Below are positions 8,725-17,786 of a stretch of 64,000 nt of DNA, piece after piece. Where the stretch lies: NCBI RefSeq assembly GCF_009914755.1, contig NC_060935.1. One strand, given 5' to 3'. Position 1 is the stretch's first letter, and every line of letters starts with the position of its first letter. The notes under the pieces are model-generated. The model worked only from the letters and a program-made list of their open reading frames with translations. It was not told the DNA's origin and made no database searches. Source of the DNA: the human T2T-CHM13v2.0 reference genome, Homo sapiens. The position numbers were made by a program, and so were the translations under genes.

Positions 8725-9720
8725 GCTCTGAGTAGTTGTCATGTCTACTAATAATCAGGTTAGTGTCAGATCCTGGAAATGAGAGACTCAGTGGAGACGG
8801 TGCTATTTGGGAAGTCACAGCACAATCCCTCTGGTGATCCACTCTGAGCATCACGTGTTGGTCACACCTCCTAGGCTGAAGGGAGCCATGTTAGTAAGCC
8901 CTTAAAAATGTCAAATGGCTTCCCCCACCCCTTAATGCCAGCAGATTCTTATCCTGTGTTTTCTCAGCCATCTCCTTGGAGGTGCCTCCAGTCACTGAAA
9001 ACCTTGCTCAAGAGCCTATGTGTCCTTTTCGCTCTATTTCTCTGCATAGGGTCCAACGCTGTCCCTTGCCCCCTTTGTTCACCAATATAGGTCAGACCTA
9101 TCACAAAATAAATGGCACAGAGGCTTCCTGAAGACACACATATTTTGAGCACAGAACAGTGAGGCTGAGCCCTTATCAGCCAAGAGCGCTTGCAGAACCA
9201 CAGAGAATCTGCTGCACAATCTGCAAGCTGGTGCTCTCCCGAGCATGCATAGTAGGTCTCAGAGCACTGGGAAGCAATGCACATCCACGGTCCATTGTAA
9301 GTCACTGGCTTAGATATGTTATATTTAACAAAACATCTCAGCCGCATCGTGTTATAACAAGTCACGTTGTAAGGGATGGATTTTATCAAGTTGGTGTGTG
9401 TTTCCCACCAAACTCTATGAGATTGGTATTATCCCTATTTCACAGGTAAGGAAACTGAGGCAGAGGGTGACCCTCTCGCTCCCGTGCCTCACAGTAACAA
9501 GAGGAGCCAGAATTCAAACCCTGGCTTCTATCTCAGACCCTTACACTGAACTGGTAAACTCCTCACACACCCATGCCAACAAGAAGGATGACTGTTTTCG
9601 ATCTCATTGTATAATCTGGCAGATTCAGCACTCTGTTGTTTCCTGGTAAGCTCATCTCCTGACACCTGGGTAATGGGTGTTTTTTCCCAAAGTGTTTGCC
9701 CAGGCCAGCCACACCTAAAG

Positions 9721-10141
9721 TGTTGGGGTACATGGCAACATATCCAAGCTTATGTACGTGGCATTTGAGGTCAGGGCATGGAAAAATACGGAGGCACTGT
9801 GTGTATGTTATTTGTGCATAAGAATGTAACTCCTTGGCCCTAAAAACAGGACAAGGAGTGAAGTGTGTCATAAGGAACGCTGAAAACAGCCTCCTAAGAA
9901 TGTGGTTTGAGAGCTTTTGCAAGGCCGCAGGTGTCTCATGACCCCACCTCAAAAAGCCATCTAGTGGATGTTTGTGGTTTAACAATCCCTTTCAATAAAT
10001 ACTTGGCGGACAGATGCTAGGGCAGGCTCTCACAAGGGCGGGCTCTCAGAAGAGCTGCCCCCACCCCCTCTCCCAGCCCCCTTCAGCTGAAATTGTCTAA
10101 GAACTCATTCTTGGCGTTCACTGCAAGCTATAAGCTCTGCA
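9721..10141 (+). promoter_or_regulatory. 5' LTR (421 bp), likely MS4A15 promoter
   Basis: tgttggggta...gctctgca; roughly 90% identical by eye to 15901-16304; AATAAATA at 9994; GC box at 10036. Confidence 0.9.
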
Positions 10142-10215
10142 AGTGGTGACCCCGACGTGATCGCCTTGAAGTTACGCTTGAAGGAGGAAAACTCATCAAT
10201 TTTCGGGGAATCCCG
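10025..10215 (+). other. MS4A15: Probable non-coding exon 1 of MS4A15 (LTR + PBS + leader; start approximate)
   Basis: Retroviral major splice donor CCG|GTAAGG at 10215/10216; no ATG in 10017-10215; position fits my recollection of a ~20-kb annotated gene span. Confidence 0.7.
10144..10161 (+). promoter_or_regulatory. Primer-binding site complementary to tRNA-Trp(CCA)
   Basis: TGGTGACCCCGACGTGAT, 2 nt after the LTR end; reverse complement of tRNA-Trp 3' end AUCACGUCGGGGUCACCA. Confidence 0.93.
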
Positions 10216-10284
10216 GTAAGGGACAGTCCTGACTCCCGTCAGGAGGATGGGACCCACGCGTAAAATATCAGGGGTTGGATTATC

Positions 10285-11760
10285 ATGGGTCAAGAAATGA
10301 CCAAAGAACAGAAAGTGTTTTTTAAAAACAGTGCGACAGCTACTTAAGGCTAACCAGTGCACTGCAGAGCCTGGAGCTCTACACAACGCTATGATCTTAA
10401 TTCGGCAGGAATGCCCTTGGTTTCCTGATCAAGGAACCTTAGACTTGAGTTATGGAGCAGGTAGGTCACTGCCTGAAAACAGGATGTGAGCAAGGTCATT
10501 TTACTGAGGTTATTGTTTTGACCACCTGGGCGCCGGTACACTCGGTGTTGTATCCTCTTTATCTGCCAGATTGCAGTGGGTCAGACCGCCCGTCTTTGCC
10601 TGAAGGGAATTCAGGAGGTTTAAAGGAGAAGGAAGAACAGGAGCCAACCAGGACAGCGGGAGGCGGGCGGGGGGTCCTCTCTCTACTTCATTCCCTTCTG
10701 TAGGGCATAAGGAGGATATTTTTTTCTAGTGATCATGAGGACGGACCGGAGCCTTTTCCTCCCCCTATAGAAAAGCCATTGCCCTCTTTTCCTCCACCCT
10801 TAAAGGGACCTGTATTCGTTGGCCCCGTTCAGGCAATGGCGCCTCCCATCCCCCTTGAGGAGTCTGGAGGCCGCCCAAGAGATGGTTCTTGGATAAGACC
10901 TCCAGTCAGTGAATATCTATATGATCGGGTGGCCGTGTCCTCAACGCCAACTCCTCGTCAAACTTTCTTAGTAGAGGGGTGCCTCCAAGAGGGACTTAGG
11001 AAGGGAGACTCTGAGGCGCTTTTTGGCGCATTCCCTGTTATTGTTCAAAGCAACAGGAGATGGCATGAGAGTTTGCCTTTTACTGTCTTTAAAGAGTTAA
11101 AGAAAAGTATCCGTGAAAACAGTGTACATTCACCGTTTACGAAGGAGGTGATTGAGGCTCTGGGAAATGGCTATAAGATGACTCCACATGATTGGAAAAC
11201 TTTGGTAAATGTTTTGGTTTCAGCTGCAGAATATACTGTGTGGTGGAGTGAGTACAGTGATTTAGCCATGCAGCAGTCCTTGCAAAATTTGGATAATAAT
11301 ATCCCGATACAACTTGATATGCTATTGGGAACAGGGCCTTTTGCTTCAGCTCAGACTCAGGGTCAAGCAGGTGGCCATCTATTTCCTCAATGCTCACAGC
11401 TAGCAATACAAACATAAAAAAAAAAAATCCCGTAAGACAATCCCAGGGTTCCTTTATAACAGTTAAACAAGGTGCCACAGAAACATACATTAAATTTATC
11501 AACCGACTGCAAGCTGCAATTGAAAAACAGGTATCCCATCCTAAGGCTACCAAACTTCTTATGTTACAATTGGCTTTTGAAAAAGCAAATAAGGATTGTC
11601 AGACAGCAATAACTCCAGTCTAAGCCACTGCCACTGAAATCAGTGTGTTTATTAAAGCATGCCAAAATATAGGCACTACAACTCATCTGACTCAAACTTT
11701 TGCTGCAATAATGACCGGAACCACATATTGTAATTGTGACCTAACCAGGCATATGGCAAA
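10285..11760 (+). pseudogene. gag: gag remnant (MA, CA, start of NC), frameshifted
   Basis: MGQEMTKEQKVF start; MA motif CPWFPDQGTLDL; CA in ORFs 10779..11417 (FKELKKSI, TPHDWKTL) and 11390..11623 (VKQGATETYIKFINRL, AFEKANKDC); degenerate knuckle YCNCDLTRH. Confidence 0.9.
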
Positions 11761-13930
11761 AATAACCCTGCTACTGTTTTCCTACCTTTAAGCAAAAAAC
11801 AATTTCATACTCTTCTAGCTTGTGCTCTTGATTGGCAAATCGCAATAGCTGACTTTATTGGTAATATCAGCTTTCATTTACCAGCCTCTAAGCTCCTGAA
11901 CTTTTTACAAACTGTGCCTGTTAAATTTGTATCTATTGTTGTTTCTGAGCCCTTGCTTCATGCCACTACTGTCTTTACAGATGGTTTAGGAAAAACTGGA
12001 AGAGCAGCTACAGTGTGGCAATAGGCCATGCAAAAATGGCAGCACAAAATCCAGGAACATTTTAAAACCACGCAACAGGCAGAGTTAGGTGCCCTGATAT
12101 TGGCCTTACAAACTTTTCCTCACCAAGACATAAACATAGTTAGTGATTCCGCTTATGCGGTGTGTAGTATTACTCATTTAGATCTTGCACATGTGAAGGG
12201 CATTACTAATGAACCCCTACTAGCTTTGTTTCTTGCAGCGTAAGAGCTCCTCTGTGACCATCATTGTGGGGAAAAGAAAGAGAGATCAGACTGTTACTGT
12301 GCCTATGTAGAAAAGGAAGACAAAAGAAACTCCATTTTGATCTGTACAAAGAAAAATTGTTATGCTTTGAGACGCTGTTAACCTGTAACTTTAGCCCCAA
12401 CCCTGTGCTCACAGAAACATGTGCTGTATTGAATCAAGGTTTAAGGGATTTAGGGGTATGCAGGATGTGCCTTGTTAACTATATGTTTGCAGACAGTATG
12501 CTTGGTAAAAGTCATCGCCATTCTCCATTCTCTATTAACCAGGGACACGATGCACTGCGGAAAGCCGCAGGGACCTCTGCCCAAGAAAGCCTGGGTGTTG
12601 TCCAAGGTTTCCCCCGACTGAGACAGCCCGAGATATGGCCTCGTGGGATTGGAAAGACCTTACCATCCCCTAGCCCGACACCCGTAAAGGGTCTGTGCTG
12701 AGGAGGATTAGTAAAAGAGGAAGGCCTCTTTGTGGTTGAGATAAGAGGAAGTCCTCTGTTTCCCACATGTCCCTGGGAATGGAATGTCTCGGTGTAAAGC
12801 CGACTATTCGTTCTATTCTGAGATAGGAGAAAACTGCCCTGTGGCTGGAGGCGAGATATGCTGGCAGCAATACTGCTCTGTTACTCTTTACTAACTGAGA
12901 TGTTTGGGTAAAGAGAAACATAAATCTAGCCTACGTGCACATCTGGGCACAGTACCTTCCCTTGAACTTATTTATGATGCAGATTCCCTTACTCACATGT
13001 TTTCCTGCTGACCTTCTCCCCACCATCACCCTGTTCACCCTGTTCTTCTGCCGCACCCCCCATGCCAAGATAGTGAAAATAGTAATCAATAAACCCTGAG
13101 GGAACTCGGAGACCGGCGCCGGTGCAGTTCCTCGCATGCTGAGTGTGCCGGACCCCTGGGCCCACCGTTCTTTCTCTGTACTTTGTGTCTTATTTCTTTT
13201 CTCAGTCTCTTGTCTACACCTGACGAGAAATACCCACAGGTGTGGAGGGGCAAGCCCCCTTCGATCATCACCCTCTTTACATCACACATATTCACTCTCA
13301 TTCTGGGCTACCTGGTCCCTTATCAGAAGGGAACGCTCGAGCTAATGCTCTGGTACACACACAGATGTGGTTTGCAGACTCTCCTGCTTTTTTGCGAATT
13401 CAAGCTGATCATGCTTTTTTTCCATCAGAACGCCTGCAGTCTTAAACAACAGTTTCATTTAACACTTGCTCAAGCTCACATGATTATTAAAACTTATCCT
13501 GATTGCCAATGGCATTCTCTTTCCCCTTTTTCCTTAGGACTTGGTGCCAACCCACGAGGTCTGGTGCCTAATGCTATCTGGCAAACTGATGTTACTCAGT
13601 ATCCACCCTTTGGACGTTTTTAAATCTCTCCATGTTACTGTGGACACTTATATAGACCTAATACATGCTATCCCCATGCCGGAGAAAAAACTAAAGATGC
13701 AGTTGCTCATTTGTTTGAATCTATTATGACTCCAGCCCTTCCACAAACTGTAAAACTGATAATGGCCCCTGCTATCTTAGTGCTCACTTTGGCTATGCAT
13801 TGCAACTTTGGCAATAAGATCAACATACAACCCAAGACTGGGATTCCCTGTAACTCAACCAGTCAGGCCATTATTAAACAAGTTCATCAAACTCGTAAAG
13901 TATATCTTAATAAACAAAAAAGGGGGAATA
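11761..13930 (+). pseudogene. pol: pol remnant: RT connection, RNase H, N-terminal/core integrase; interrupted by LTR5
   Basis: DWQIAIADFIG, TVFTDG, QQAELGA, NIVSDSAY, HIHSHSGLPGPLSEGN, NPRGLVPNAIWQTDVT; stops and frameshifts; no protease or RT palm. Confidence 0.9.
12265..13263 (+). mobile_element. HERV-K(HML-2) solo LTR, LTR5A/5B type (999 bp)
   Basis: Starts tgtggggaaaagaaagagagatcagactg, ends gcaagcccccttcg; TSD ATCAT (12260-12264 / 13264-13268); AATAAA at 13088. Confidence 0.93.
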
Positions 13931-13980
13931 TCGGGCCCTCTTCTCGAGAACAGGACCTGTCATTGGAGAATCGACTGACA

Positions 13981-14172
13981 ATGACGGTGATGACTCAGAA
14001 GGCACCTGACATTACCTGGGGACAGCTAAAGAAATTGGATCAACAGGCAACTATCCGGCTTGCAGGCATAGAAGCCTCTGTAACTGCAGAGAATCAGTTT
14101 CTTATGTATCTGGGGGTAATTGGGAAAACTTCTGAGAAAGTAAGACGACATAGATGTTGGGGTGGCTGGTAA
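13981..14172 (+). pseudogene. Rec-like / Env-leader ORF (63 aa from ATG 13981)
   Basis: APDITWGQLKKLDQQA matches the HML Rec/signal-peptide core (HML-2 PTWAQLKKLTQLA); donor AAA|GTAAGA at 14139/14140. Confidence 0.7.
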
Positions 14173-15899
14173 TTCTTGTCCTTTGCCAAGTGGGATCACC
14201 TCAAGAACATGTTTACTGGAGTCATGTTCTAAATCCCCCTGTTTTTAATGTTATTTCATGGTGGGATGCTGACCTGCCTTTGTCATCTAATGATACTTCT
14301 TGGACGAGAGGTCGATGGATGCCCCTGTCTTACCCTTCAGTGGAAAATTTGGGATGGATTAAACTTAATAACTCCTTGGTTGTATTGTCTAGTAATCCCC
14401 CTCTTTGTTTTTCCACAATAGCACATGCTAAGTGTGTTACTCTTATTCTTCAGGAGTATCTTTACTGTCAGCCTAAAAGGGATGCTAAGCTTGCAAACTT
14501 GACCTTTATTTCTGCTATTACCACTAATCTTACTGAGGTCTCTAATGAAGCTACACAAGTGCCTGATCTTCCTATATGCCGTCTGAGTAGGGACTGGGGA
14601 TATAAGTTTGAGGCCATTCAGTGGTCTCCATCCAGACAGCCTGCGCCATGTCAAGGGCCTCTGTTTGATAATGGCACCTTACTTGATTGGAGTCCCCATG
14701 GTTATCTTATGTCTGCAAATCAGACTATTGGATCTGGGAGTCCCCAGTAAGTCTATCACCTGGTCAGAGTACAGGCTTTCAGGACCAATATTACAACTAA
14801 AAGGGAAACAAGCTTTAAGCCCTGCTCATACCCAAATTTGGAGATTAGAACTTCCTTTTTTTGAATGGGTTCTTTCACATGATGAGTATATTACTAGCAG
14901 TGGCAATTATACCCTCTGTTTCCATAATAATGTTACTGACACAGTTGTGATTTGTACTACGCACTCTTATATACTTTTGTTTGGGCAAAGTGTTCCTAAT
15001 ATAGAGCAGAATCAATCCTTTTATAGTAGTAAAGTCTCTTCCAGTAGTTAGTATGCTACATGCCTGTCTCATCGAAATGTTACATAGTTAAATATAACCT
15101 ATGTCATGATCTTAAAATGGCGTGCAGAATTTTGGCTGCCTGTAAATTTAACCTGGAGCTGGGAAGGAGATTCAACCCTGCAGCTGTTTAGAAAAGCACT
15201 GTCTCATACTCAGAAAAAAAGATTTCTGGCCACTTTAATTGCTTTTTTAGTCTCAGCTATTATTATATTAGCAACTGCTGCTACTGCAGCTGCTTTTTCT
15301 AACAAAATCTATTCACACAGCTTCAGTGGTGAACCACATGGTATATAATGTAACCCATAAATTTCAAAAACAGGTAAATATTAATCAAACTACTCTGTCT
15401 CACCTGGAGGCTCTTAAAGCTGCAGTTGAATGGCTGGGGGATCAGCAGCTGGCATTCATTACCCATCAACATTTATATTGTAATTGGCAATATAATTCTA
15501 TCTATGTCACACCTCTGCCATATAATAGCTCCCAATATGCTTGGGAGAGAGTGAAAACACACCTGCAAGGGGCTTATCACAATCATTAGTCTTCTCAAAT
15601 TCCCACTCTTAAGTGTAAATTTAAAAAACAACTTAAAAAATGGTCACAGCAATTATAAACAAATACCCTTCAACAATTATAAAAAGGCTTTCAATAGTTA
15701 AACCCAAACACTTAGTTATCTGGGTTAAACATACACATTTGGGTAATGGCCAATATACTTATTCTTTTTTGTATTTGTTTGCTAGGTATGTACAAATGGC
15801 TCTGTGCTGTCACTCAGTGCATCTATAACCAAGAAAAAGCAATAAAAGCTTACCTCGCTTTAAATAACCAACATACTCTAAAAATTAAAGAAGGGGGAG
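14154..15899 (+). pseudogene. env: env remnant (SU + TM), frameshifted
   Basis: HVYWSHVLNPP, LLDWSPHG, FWLPVNL, furin-like QKKR followed by fusion peptide FLATLIAFLVSAIIILATA, EWLGDQ, CNWQYNSIYVTP. Confidence 0.9.
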
Positions 15900-15900
15900 A
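15881..15900 (+). promoter_or_regulatory. Polypurine tract
   Basis: aaaattaaagaagggggaga immediately before the 3' LTR TG. Confidence 0.9.
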
Positions 15901-16304
15901 TGTTGAGGGTGCACGGCAACATATCCAAGCTTATGTACATGGCATTTGAGGTTGGGGCATGGAAAAATACTGAGGCACTCTGTGTATGTTATTTATGCAT
16001 GAGAATGTAACTCCTTGACCCTAAAAACAGGACAAGGATTGAGGTGTGTAATAAGGAACGCTGAAAACAGCCTCCTAAGAAGGTGGTTTGAGAGCTTTTA
16101 TAAGGTCATAGGTGTCTCATGACCCTCAAAAAGCCATCTAGTGGATGTTTGTGGTTTAACAAGCTCTTTCAATAAATACTTGGCGGACAGATGCTGGGGT
16201 GGACTCTCTCAGAAGAGCTCCCCGCCACCCCCGCTCGAGGCCCACTCAGCTGGAATTGTCTAAGAACTCATTCTTGGCATTCACTGCAAGCTATAAACTC
16301 TGCA
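15901..16304 (+). mobile_element. 3' LTR (404 bp)
   Basis: tgttgagggt...actctgca followed by TSD taaag; AATAAA at 16171. Confidence 0.93.
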
Positions 16305-16891
16305 TAAAGTTTCCATATCTACACATTTCTTGGCTACATCAATGGTAATTGCTTGGGTGGCCAAATAGAAAGCTTCCCACAGCAGGTGGGAAGTTCCCAT
16401 ACCCAGGGGAATTATTGACGCTAGCTCAATAGTTGAGAGCTGAGAGGCAGGAAGTGGCAGTGAGTCCTGGTCTCGGGGTGAAGAAACCGGTACTCTAGCT
16501 AAGCTCTACCTTGCACTAGCTGTGTGTCCTTAGGTAAGTCACTTGCCCTTTCTGGGAAAAGAAGGGCATTTAAATAAACACTCCTCCAAAAGGAGCTTTC
16601 CACATAATATAGCTCAGAGATTAAGAGCAAGGCCTCTGAAACCAGAGAGACTAGAATTCAAATCTCAGTCTTACCCCACCTACAGGCCCTTGACCTCAGA
16701 CATCTTTCGCTTCTCTGAGTCTCAGCTTCCCCAGCTTTGATGAGAGCGTTTGGGGCCATACTGGCAGGGCTGCAGTAAGCAAGGGAAGTAGGCACGTTGC
16801 TTATCAACTAAAAAGCTTTATGCACATGGGTGACAATCATCATTGCCATTATTATCTCCCAAGCCTTTGTTTCCCAGGCTCTCTGAGCACG

Positions 16892-17116
16892 ATGTCTGCA
16901 GCTCCCGCCAGCAATGGAGTGTTTGTTGTCATCCCGCCAAACAACGCCGGTGGCCTCTGCCCACCTCCGGCCATTCTGCCCACATCCATGTGCCAACCTC
17001 CAGGGATTATGCAGTTTGAGGAGCCACCGCTGGGGGCACAGACACCAAGGGCCACACAGCCACCTGACTTGCGGCCCGTGGAGACATTCCTGACAGGAGA
17101 GCCCAAAGTTTTGGGG
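16892..17116 (+). CDS. MS4A15: MS4A15 coding exon 1 (aa 1-75, cytoplasmic N-terminus)
   Basis: MSAAPASNGVFVVIPP...FLTGEPKVLG; acceptors at 16863/4 and 16877/8; donor GGG|GTAAGA. Confidence 0.95.
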
Positions 17117-17786
17117 GTAAGAACAGCCTCTCTGCACAACCTGAGGCAGGTAGTGAGTATCCCAGCACCGGAACATTCATGCATGTTTTGGAGAGGGGAG
17201 AAGGCAGTTAACAAATATGTAGTAATGACTCAAAGATTCAGCCATGCACCAGGTAGACAAGCACCCTTCCCGCATAAAGTTCACAGAGAGTAAACCAGTA
17301 AACAAATGACTCAGAAACCTCCAAAGAGAAAAGTAAGGTTGAAAATGATGACTAGGGCTAAGGGGAATACTAGCGAGGGTAGGTGGAAACTTGTCTCTGG
17401 GGAGATGACATTTAAGCCCAAACCTGGCTGTTAGATTGAAGCCAGCCAAGGGAATAGCTAGTGGAAGGGCTGGAGAGGGAGGGCTCACCAGGTAGAGTGC
17501 AAAGGCCTTGGGAATGAGTGTGGCTGTTAAAGGAAGAGGTGGAAGCTCGCCATAGCTGGAATGTAATGAGCAAAGGAAAGGGGGAGGTGAGATGGAATGA
17601 AAGTGATAGATGAAAGTCAGCCCTGATAGAGCTGAAGGCACATGAAGGATTTCAATCTCAGATGGCCTTGAGCTATTGGTCTCAATAAAATACTGAAGTC
17701 ATAAAATATTAGGTAGAGATAGAAAGATACATACACACATTTGCACGTGTGTGTGTATACATGTAGCGTTAAAAAGAAAAGCTTTA

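What the first reader, a model, noticed from the sequence alone, without database searches (positions are those of the whole stretch)
9721..16892. MS4A15 appears to be transcribed from a provirus: LTR + PBS form exon 1 and the whole viral genome is intron 1
Seen: the MS4A15 ATG exon starts at a splice acceptor only 14 or 28 nt upstream of the ATG, so an upstream exon is needed. A sense-oriented provirus ends ~560 bp upstream. Its leader has a strong donor CCG|GTAAGG at 10215 and no ATG from 10017 to the donor. Established: retroviral major donors lie just after the PBS, and LTRs are co-opted as promoters. Inference: MS4A15 (reported as lung-enriched and linked to ferroptosis resistance) is spliced like a viral subgenomic RNA from a primate-specific promoter. 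The exon itself is probably annotated; its proviral origin and regulatory consequences may be little discussed.
Basis: partly seen in the sequence, partly recalled or inferred. Interest (0 to 1): 0.85.

Follow-up and report, generated by a model that had tools for sequence, protein, structure and literature searches.

The report
MS4A15 promoter is an ERV-Hako provirus
The first exon of the human MS4A15 gene is made of the left end of an ancient defective retrovirus whose own splice signal joins it to the gene, a real and tidy case of a virus-derived promoter that was already reported in 2025.

Summary
Window 9721-16304 is a sense-oriented provirus. It has 421/404-bp LTRs (9.9% diverged), a 5-bp target duplication TAAAG, a polypurine tract, and an 18-nt primer-binding site complementary to tRNA-Trp. 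Its coding remnants are betaretrovirus-like: gag, RNase H, integrase zinc finger and env.

RefSeq exon 1 of MS4A15 (10024-10215) lies wholly inside the 5' LTR plus leader. Its donor CCG|GTAAGG sits between the primer-binding site and the gag ATG, and 10 of 11 related copies that carry a leader keep it. It is therefore most likely the virus's own major donor. Intron 1 holds the rest of the provirus plus 559 bp of host DNA.

The case is in print. Frith 2025 (Mob DNA, PMC11905727) names this family ERV-Hako and states that one relic contains the MS4A15 transcription start site, replacing the promoter in catarrhines.

Added here:
- The family lacks protease and RT.
- A 1000-bp solo LTR is nested in RNase H.
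- A 16-bp tandem duplication unique to this LTR straddles the annotated start site.
- The promoter LTR shows no sign of slower evolution than its intronic twin.

Verdict: real, correctly read, already known, modest interest.

The parts
9716..9720 (+). Left target-site duplication TAAAG
   Evidence: The same 5 nt follow the 3' LTR at 16305-16309.
9721..10141 (+). 5' LTR (421 bp, TG...CA) of the ERV-Hako-type provirus; holds the annotated MS4A15 transcription start at 10024
   Evidence: Direct repeat with 15901-16304. 42 related places in the genome.
9995..10002 (+). AATAAATA, the only A/T-rich box near the start site; it ends 22 nt before the annotated start. Either the viral poly(A) signal, a TATA-like box, or both (inferred).
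   Evidence: AATAAA is kept exactly in 25 of 37 copies with sequence at this site (my count on the alignment slice).
10020..10051 (+). 16-bp tandem duplication (10020-10035 and 10036-10051, 14 of 16 identical) straddling the annotated start; the second unit keeps an intact GGGCGG
   Evidence: One search gives the two units. The extra bases are absent from the 3' LTR and from all 39 other copies; 35 of those have sequence across the site.
10024..10215 (+). MS4A15 exon 1 (non-coding): 118 nt of LTR, 2-nt spacer, primer-binding site and 54 nt of leader
   Evidence: RefSeq table supplied with the finding. No ATG inside.
10144..10161 (+). Primer-binding site, complementary to the 3' end of tRNA-Trp(CCA)
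   Evidence: The 15-nt core 10147-10161 matches exactly at 10 genomic places. Five of them coincide with the 3' end of tRNA-Trp genes called by ARAGORN. Frith 2025 states that Hako used tRNA-Trp.
10213..10221 (+). Donor CCG|GTAAGG: the viral major 5' splice site (inferred), used as the exon 1 donor
   Evidence: Its position lies between the primer-binding site and the gag ATG. GTAAGG is kept in 10 of 11 copies that carry a leader.
10285..11620 (+). gag remnant, broken by stops and frameshifts: matrix p10, capsid p24 N- and C-terminal domains
   Evidence: Pfam: Gag_p10 at 10310-10450 (E 1.1e-9), Gag_p24 at 11064-11411 (E 2.4e-31), Gag_p24_C at 11444-11617 (E 8.8e-17).
12037..12264 (+). RNase H remnant, left part; protease and RT are absent between gag and this point
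   Evidence: Pfam RNase_H at 12037-12177, E 3.4e-9. No protease, RT, dUTPase or integrase-core hit even at E<=1. The chr8 copy L042 is collinear across 9721-12264.
12265..13264 (+). Nested 1000-bp solo LTR of another, abundant family (looks like the HERV-K LTR5 type, from recall), same orientation, flanked by ATCAT
   Evidence: 40 of 40 scored genomic matches are near full length at 86-92% identity, out of 1582 first-look candidates. It is absent from 4 of 4 other Hako proviruses that cover the site. Flanks are shown.
13417..13509 (+). Integrase zinc-binding domain remnant
   Evidence: Pfam Integrase_Zn, E 1.3e-5.
13990..15583 (+). env remnant: N-terminal Rec-like stretch (below the Pfam cutoff) through the transmembrane subunit
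   Evidence: Pfam HERV-K_REC at 13990-14124, 19.7 bits against a cutoff of 27.5. GP41 at 15299-15583, E 2.5e-16.
15887..15900 (+). Polypurine tract
   Evidence: Read directly from the sequence; it abuts the 3' LTR.
15901..16304 (+). 3' LTR (404 bp), intronic
   Evidence: It carries AATAAA at 16171.
16305..16863 (+). Host part of intron 1 (559 bp), starting with the right target-site duplication TAAAG
   Evidence: RefSeq enhancer features 16321-16380 and 16411-16500 come from the supplied table.
16864..17116 (+). MS4A15 exon 2, with alternative acceptors at 16864 and 16878 and the ATG at 16892
   Evidence: and the supplied RefSeq table.

Best explanation
A defective betaretrovirus-like provirus of the ERV-Hako family inserted, in sense orientation, 559 bp upstream of the ATG-bearing exon of MS4A15 in an ancestor of catarrhine primates. 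Transcription of MS4A15 now starts in its 5' LTR, at annotated position 10024, 22 nt after a conserved AATAAATA box and inside a GC-box-like repeat.

The RNA runs through the rest of the LTR, the tRNA-Trp primer-binding site and 54 nt of leader. It then uses the virus's own major splice donor (10215|10216). Instead of pairing with the viral env acceptor, that donor pairs with the acceptor of the host ATG exon (16864, or 16878). This removes gag, RNase H, the nested solo LTR, integrase, env, the 3' LTR and 559 bp of host DNA as intron 1.

Exon 1 has no ATG, so the protein is unchanged and only the start site and 5' UTR are viral.

Shown here: the proviral anatomy, the family, the tRNA-Trp primer-binding site and conservation of the donor.
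Taken from the annotation and from Frith 2025: use of the start site and of the junction.
Inferred: that 10216 was the viral major donor, and that AATAAATA acts as the TATA-like element.
For: - Provirus hallmarks: paired LTRs, TAAAG duplication, primer-binding site and polypurine tract.
- Group II/betaretrovirus-like domains in the order gag, RNase H, integrase, env.
- The primer-binding-site core is identical to the complement of the 3' end of tRNA-Trp genes at 5 of 10 exact genomic matches.
- The LTR+leader has 42 matching places in the genome.
- The donor GTAAGG is kept in 10 of 11 copies that carry a leader, including copies only 69-74% identical.
- It is the only GTAAG-type GT between the primer-binding site and the gag ATG.
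- No ATG in exon 1.
- The supplied RefSeq table gives exon 1 as 10024-10215 spliced to 16864, and the gene span starts at 10024.
- LTR divergence of K2P 0.107 gives 24-54 Myr under rates of 1.0-2.2e-9 per site per year (the rates are recalled values).
Against: - I could see no transcript-level data (CAGE, RNA-seq junctions); start-site and junction use rest on the annotation and one paper.
- The annotated start lies 22 nt downstream of the LTR's only AATAAA. It may therefore not be the virus's own cap site; the native U3/R/U5 limits could not be fixed.
- The 5' LTR shows no fewer derived changes than the intronic 3' LTR: 21 against 15, with 4 ambiguous, binomial p 0.41. At least 5 of the 21 are alignment effects at the LTR start and in the duplication. 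So there is no sequence sign of selection on the promoter LTR, although the power of this test is low.
- The RefSeq table lists one transcript whose first exon starts at 17032, so a second start site may exist.
Confidence: 0.9

Rival explanations
1. The LTR is only one of two or more promoters. An ancestral promoter close to the ATG exon (within 16305-16863, or the start at 17032) still contributes materially, so the provirus added an alternative first exon rather than replacing the promoter.
For: The supplied RefSeq table lists a transcript exon 17032-17116 that begins inside exon 2. It also lists enhancer features at 16321-16380 and 16411-16500, directly after the 3' LTR. The 5' LTR shows no evidence of constraint.
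Against: The RefSeq gene span starts at 10024, and the selected transcript plus the listed alternatives share exon 1. A start at 17032 lies after the ATG at 16892 and could not encode the full protein. Frith 2025 writes that the promoter was replaced.
Confidence: 0.2
2. The start site used by MS4A15 is not the virus's own cap site. It is a new one, created or positioned after insertion by the 16-bp duplication and nearby substitutions, downstream of the LTR's poly(A) signal. The virus supplied the upstream promoter elements and the donor, while the host lineage reshaped the core promoter.
For: The duplication is unique to this LTR: it is absent from 39 other copies, 35 of which have sequence at the site. 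The annotated +1 A at 10024 is a derived state, with G in 24 of 27 close copies. AATAAA lies upstream of +1, which is the wrong side for a poly(A) signal inside R.
Against: Betaretroviruses with very short R regions carry the poly(A) signal in U3 (recalled, not checked here), so the layout could be native. A 32-nt feature covering the start site inside a 421-nt LTR would happen by chance roughly 1 time in 13. There is no functional test.
Confidence: 0.2
3. Exon 1 is an annotation artefact or a rare read-through of proviral transcription, and most MS4A15 mRNA starts elsewhere.
For: None was found beyond the fact that I could not inspect transcript data.
Against: The RefSeq selected transcript uses it. 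Independent mention by Frith 2025. The ATG exon begins at an acceptor 28 or 14 nt before the ATG and therefore needs an upstream exon.
Confidence: 0.04

Closest known systems
ERV-Hako relic at MS4A15 (Frith 2025, Mob DNA 16:11, PMC11905727)
   Same: It is the same object. The paper describes a group II ERV, a tRNA-Trp primer-binding site, 5-6 bp target duplications, LTRs not recognised by RepeatMasker, catarrhine age, and states that one relic contains the MS4A15 start site. Each sequence feature except the age was re-found here.
   Different: The text I could read does not mention the following:
- the leader donor;
- that the provirus forms intron 1;
- the nested solo LTR;
- the duplication at the start site;
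- the lack of protease/RT in this copy.
HERV-E proviruses as alternative promoters of PTN and MID1 (review PMC4379568, passages read)
   Same: A sense-oriented provirus upstream of exon 2 acts as promoter. It splices to exon 2 and gives a fusion mRNA with a different 5' UTR and an unchanged protein.
   Different: Those are class I (HERV-E) elements and are alternative, tissue-restricted promoters beside a retained host promoter. Here a class II element carries the selected transcript's start site.
LTR promoter exaptations with an LTR-borne splice donor, such as THE1B-CSF1R and LOR1a-IRF5 (Babaian and Mager 2016, PMC5134097, passages read)
   Same: The LTR initiates transcription and a donor in the element joins to the gene's exon that carries the normal start codon.
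   Different: Those are solitary LTRs activated in cancer. Here a provirus with its leader is used in normal tissue, and the donor lies in the leader after the primer-binding site, not in the LTR.
Retroviral promoter insertion with splicing from the viral leader donor into a host exon (avian leukosis virus at c-erbB; recalled, not checked here)
   Same: A transcript from the 5' LTR uses the viral major donor and a host acceptor, in the manner of a subgenomic RNA.
   Different: That is a somatic, oncogenic event with truncated products. Here the event is germ-line, fixed and leaves the protein intact.

Membership tests
ERV-Hako (Frith 2025) | Interior homologous to group II (betaretrovirus-like, ERV-K-type) proteins | tested here: met
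   Pfam hits to Gag_p10, Gag_p24, Gag_p24_C, RNase_H, Integrase_Zn and GP41, plus a sub-threshold HERV-K_REC hit.
ERV-Hako (Frith 2025) | Primer-binding site for tRNA-Trp | tested here: met
   The 15-nt core is exact at 10 genomic places. Five are the 3' ends of ARAGORN tRNA-Trp(CCA) genes, four flush and one offset by 1 nt. The preceding TGG pairs with the added CCA (established knowledge).
ERV-Hako (Frith 2025) | Target-site duplication of 5 or 6 bp | tested here: met
   TAAAG on both sides.
ERV-Hako (Frith 2025) | [quoted passage not shown] | tested here: met
   42 LTR matches. Five other proviruses were fetched. The chr8 copy is collinear with this one. The chrX and chr1 copies have another segment of about 1.5 kb in place of window 10994-11762. 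I did not test whether that segment is SUSD6 or SPHKAP.
ERV-Hako (Frith 2025) | Match to the published Hako consensus or Dfam model | not testable with these tools
Assignment rests on the features above and on the paper's statement that a Hako relic holds the MS4A15 start site.
ERV-Hako (Frith 2025) | Insertion in a catarrhine ancestor | tested here: inconclusive
   LTR divergence K2P 0.107 gives 24-54 Myr depending on the assumed rate. This is compatible but not decisive. No other primate genome is held.
LTR-derived host gene promoter with a viral splice donor | Transcription start inside the LTR | not testable with these tools
   Taken from the supplied RefSeq table (exon 1 starts at 10024) and Frith 2025. 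No CAGE data are on hand.
LTR-derived host gene promoter with a viral splice donor | The donor belongs to the element rather than being a chance site in this copy | tested here: met
   GTAAGG is at the homologous place in 10 of 11 copies that carry a leader; it is lost in L031.
LTR-derived host gene promoter with a viral splice donor | Host open reading frame left intact | tested here: met
   No ATG in 10024-10215. The ATG at 16892 lies 28 or 14 nt after the acceptors.

The most novel reading that the evidence does not exclude
The core promoter that MS4A15 uses is not the virus's own. After insertion, a 16-bp tandem duplication found in no other copy of the family doubled the LTR's GC box, and a CpG-to-CpA change made the +1 base. 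Together these placed a new start site just downstream of the LTR's poly(A) signal. The gene's transcripts therefore escape premature polyadenylation in the 5' LTR while still using the viral leader donor.
Probability: 0.18. Interest if true: 0.4.

Novelty: already known. Interest (0 to 1): 0.25.

Why it matters
MS4A15 is conserved across mammals, is a lung alveolar type 1 marker, and modulates ferroptosis (passages). In catarrhines its start site and 5' UTR are viral. Three consequences follow:
- Mouse promoter studies do not transfer to human.
- Guides for CRISPRa or CRISPRi against human MS4A15 fall in repeat sequence that has about 40 relatives in the genome.
- Silencing of the gene in cell lines (at most 1 TPM in 1345 of 1375 lines) could reflect ERV-type repression. 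That is inference only.

As a kind of event it is ordinary, and this instance is published.

Tried and rejected
- Rfam scan of 9000-17500 at E<=1 gave 0 matches.
- A TATA box at 9918-9923 was suggested by TATAAG in the 3' LTR (16099-16104). I rejected it because that state is derived: most copies read ACAAGG there, and 9919 and 9920 polarise to A and C.
- I tried to fix the R/U5 border from copies that seemed to stop near query position 311 (L023, L027). They are simply interrupted there and have no poly(A) tail, so this gave no information.
- Relative-rate test for constraint on the promoter LTR gave no signal.
I repeated it with stop-free segments.
Neither was retried.
- Search for other papers linking MS4A15 to an LTR, ERV or transposable element:
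  - 3 papers; 2 records of one work; 5 papers; 4 papers;
  - one search found 52 papers holding 'MS4A15' and 'promoter', of which 15 were listed, and I read passages of 2;
  - only Frith 2025 makes the link.
- An opossum lung-development paper lists MS4A15 only in its abbreviations in the text I saw. This is too thin to show that lung expression predates the provirus.
Full report
**1. The observation**

Reading 9400-10500 and 15800-17150 and a repeat search show two direct repeats about 6.18 kb apart. After alignment they are:
- the 5' LTR, 9721-10141 (421 bp);
- the 3' LTR, 15901-16304 (404 bp).

Both start TG and end CA. They differ at 40 of 403 aligned sites (26 transitions, 14 transversions; K2P 0.107) and by 3 indels.

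The other provirus hallmarks are present:
- The 5 nt TAAAG lie immediately outside both ends.
- A polypurine tract, AAAGAAGGGGGAGA (15887-15900), abuts the 3' LTR.
- Two bases after the 5' LTR comes TGGTGACCCCGACGTGAT (10144-10161).

- The donor CCG|GTAAGG sits at 10215|10216. It is the only GT with a GTAAG core between the primer-binding site and the first gag-like ATG at 10285.
- No ATG occurs in 10024-10215; the last one upstream is at 10014.
- The acceptors place exon starts at 16864 and 16878, which is 28 and 14 nt before the ATG at 16892.
- The 3' LTR ends 559 bp before 16864.

**2. What the element is**

Pfam searches of the stop-free segments of the interior give, in order:

| Domain | Window position | Score |
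|---|---|---|
| Gag_p10 | 10310-10450 | E 1.1e-9 |
| Gag_p24 | 11064-11411 | E 2.4e-31 |
| Gag_p24_C | 11444-11617 | E 8.8e-17 |
| RNase_H | 12037-12177 | E 3.4e-9 |
| Integrase_Zn | 13417-13509 | E 1.3e-5 |
| HERV-K_REC | 13990-14124 | 19.7 bits, below the 27.5 cutoff |
| GP41 | 15299-15583 | E 2.5e-16 |

This is the betaretrovirus-like (class II) set of domains. No protease, dUTPase, RT or integrase-core match appears even at E<=1 on shorter segments. Only about 420 nt separate capsid from RNase H, so those genes are missing.

The own genome could be searched:
- The LTR plus leader (9721-10230) has 42 matching places.
- I fetched 40 of them and five further proviruses.
- The chr8 provirus (L042) is collinear with this one across 9721-12264 and 13265-15725. 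The gag-to-RNase H junction is therefore a trait of the family or subfamily, not a local deletion.
- The chrX and chr1 copies carry a different segment of about 1.5 kb in place of window 10994-11762. This fits the host-gene inserts that Frith reports for Hako copies on X and chromosome 1, but I did not test what the segment is.

**3. The primer-binding site**

The 15-nt core (10147-10161) occurs exactly 10 times in the genome:
- Five coincide with the last 15 nt of tRNA-Trp(CCA) genes called by ARAGORN, four flush and one offset by 1 nt in ARAGORN's boundaries.
- Three are this provirus and the two chrX copies.
- Two carry no tRNA (L048, L055; not followed up).

With the post-transcriptional CCA pairing to the TGG at 10144-10146, the full 18 nt are complementary to tRNA-Trp.

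**4. The nested element**

Window 12265-13264 interrupts the RNase H remnant.
- The four other proviruses that cover the site (L041, L042, L043, L045) run straight across it.
- A query that I cut at 12263-13258, slightly off the true ends, found near-full-length matches at 86-92% identity in 40 of 40 scored places, out of 1582 first-look candidates.
- It is flanked by ATCAT on both sides.

It is therefore a later, sense-oriented solo LTR of an abundant family. From recall it looks like an LTR5-type HERV-K LTR; no tool here could name it. It brings an AATAAA at 13088 into intron 1. Four further sense AATAAA lie at 13909, 15841, 16171 (in the 3' LTR) and 16573.

**5. Relation to MS4A15**

The RefSeq table supplied with the finding gives exon 1 as 10024-10215, exon 2 as 16864-17116 (alternative 16878), and a gene span starting at 10024. 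Exon 1 therefore consists of:
- 118 nt of LTR;
- the 2-nt spacer;
- the primer-binding site;
- 54 nt of leader.

Intron 1 (10216-16863) holds the rest of the leader, all coding remnants, the nested LTR, the 3' LTR and 559 bp of host DNA.

Eleven copies have a leader reaching the donor site: L001-L007, L030, L031, L033 and L034. Ten keep GTAAGG there; L031 reads GATAAGG. L030, L033 and L034, which are only 69-74% identical overall, are among the ten. The donor's position, 54 nt after the primer-binding site and 69 nt before the gag ATG, is where retroviral major donors lie (established knowledge).

**6. The start site**

The only A/T-rich box nearby is AATAAATA (9995-10002). AATAAA is exact in 25 of 37 copies with sequence there (my count). 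The annotated start is 22 nt after it.

Two readings fit, and I could not decide between them:
- The box serves as a TATA-like element and also, in the 3' LTR, as the poly(A) signal, with a very short R. This is the layout I recall for several betaretroviruses; I did not check it.
- The viral cap site lay further upstream, and the gene's start is new.

Three further observations bear on this:
- The annotated +1 lies in the first unit of a 16-bp tandem duplication (10020-10035 and 10036-10051, 14 of 16 identical). The duplication is absent from the 3' LTR and from all 39 other copies, 35 of which have sequence across the site.
- Most copies read GGGGCGG here, which is a GC-box-like word. In this LTR the first unit reads GGGCAGG and the second GGGCGGG.
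- The +1 A is derived, with G in 24 of 27 close copies.

**7. Selection**

I polarised the differences between the two LTRs using 27 close copies. This gives 21 changes on the 5' LTR, 15 on the 3' LTR and 4 ambiguous (binomial p 0.41). At least 5 of the 21 are alignment effects, at the first bases of the LTR and inside the duplication. There is no sign that the promoter LTR evolved more slowly than its intronic twin. The test has little power.

**8. Age**

K2P 0.107 gives 24-54 Myr for rates of 2.2e-9 to 1.0e-9 per site per year (the rates are recalled). That fits a catarrhine-ancestor insertion, as Frith states, but does not prove it. No other primate genome is held here.

**9. What is in print**

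Martin Frith, Mob DNA 2025;16:11 (PMC11905727; also bioRxiv 10.1101/2024.12.11.627920). I read the abstract, the Methods and 'ERV-Hako' sections whole, and passages of the Discussion. The paper:
- defines ERV-Hako as a group II ERV;
- notes that RepeatMasker does not recognise its LTRs;
- reports 5-6 bp target duplications;
[quoted passage not shown] '

Searches for MS4A15 with LTR, ERV-Hako, retrovir-, 'transposable element' and promoter found no other paper making the link. The others I opened mention MS4A15 for unrelated reasons.

On expression and function:
- Xin et al. 2022 (passages) report lung expression and at most 1 TPM in 1345 of 1375 cell lines.
- A 2026 preprint lists MS4A15 in an alveolar type 1 gene module (passage).

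The general mechanism is textbook for ERVs: a sense provirus upstream of exon 2 acts as promoter and splices to exon 2. I saw it described in passages on HERV-E at PTN and MID1 (PMC4379568) and in passages of Babaian and Mager 2016 (PMC5134097).

**10. Verdict**

It is a published member of a well-known kind, so novelty is 'already known' and interest is modest.

Details added here that I did not find in the readable text of the paper:
- use of the conserved leader donor;
- the defective gene content, shared with the chr8 copy;
- the nested solo LTR;
- the start-site duplication unique to this LTR;
- the absence of detectable constraint on the 5' LTR.

Noticed in passing
window 12265-13264: A 1000-bp solo LTR of an abundant family (1582 first-look candidates; looks LTR5/HERV-K-like from recall) is nested in sense orientation in the RNase H remnant. 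It is flanked by ATCAT and absent from 4 of 4 other Hako proviruses that cover the site. It adds an AATAAA (13088) to MS4A15 intron 1.
   Followed up: yes
window 10020-10051: A 16-bp tandem duplication (14 of 16 identical) straddles the annotated MS4A15 start. It is absent from the 3' LTR and from all 39 other copies aligned, 35 of which have sequence at the site.
   Followed up: partly
window 11620-12037; L042 (chr8 copy): Protease and RT are missing, and the gag-to-RNase H junction is shared with the chr8 provirus. The element family therefore appears to have spread as a defective genome. The chrX (L041) and chr1 (L043) copies replace window 10994-11762 with another segment of about 1.5 kb.
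   Followed up: partly
window 16097-16106 (3' LTR): The 3' LTR reads TTTTATAAGG, a canonical-looking TATA box, where the 5' LTR reads TTTTGCAAGG and most copies read TTTTACAAGG. It is a derived change in the intronic LTR.
   Followed up: partly
L034 (G000:C19:24102980-24104116): A divergent relative on chromosome 19 carries three tandem copies of the primer-binding-site stretch after its LTR (alignment slice).
   Followed up: no
L048 (chr9) and L055 (chrX:135.1 Mb): Two exact matches to the 15-nt primer-binding-site core have no tRNA gene and were not among the LTR matches. They may be further relics or tRNA-derived fragments.
   Followed up: no
window 9400-9560 and 16500-16740: Host DNA on both sides of the provirus looks like MIR-type SINE sequence (recalled motif, no tool check). 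A consensus-like donor TAG|GTAAGT at 16534|16535 lies within it.
   Followed up: no
window 17032-17116: The RefSeq table lists a transcript exon that begins inside exon 2, downstream of the ATG at 16892. This is a possible second start site that could not encode the full protein.
   Followed up: no
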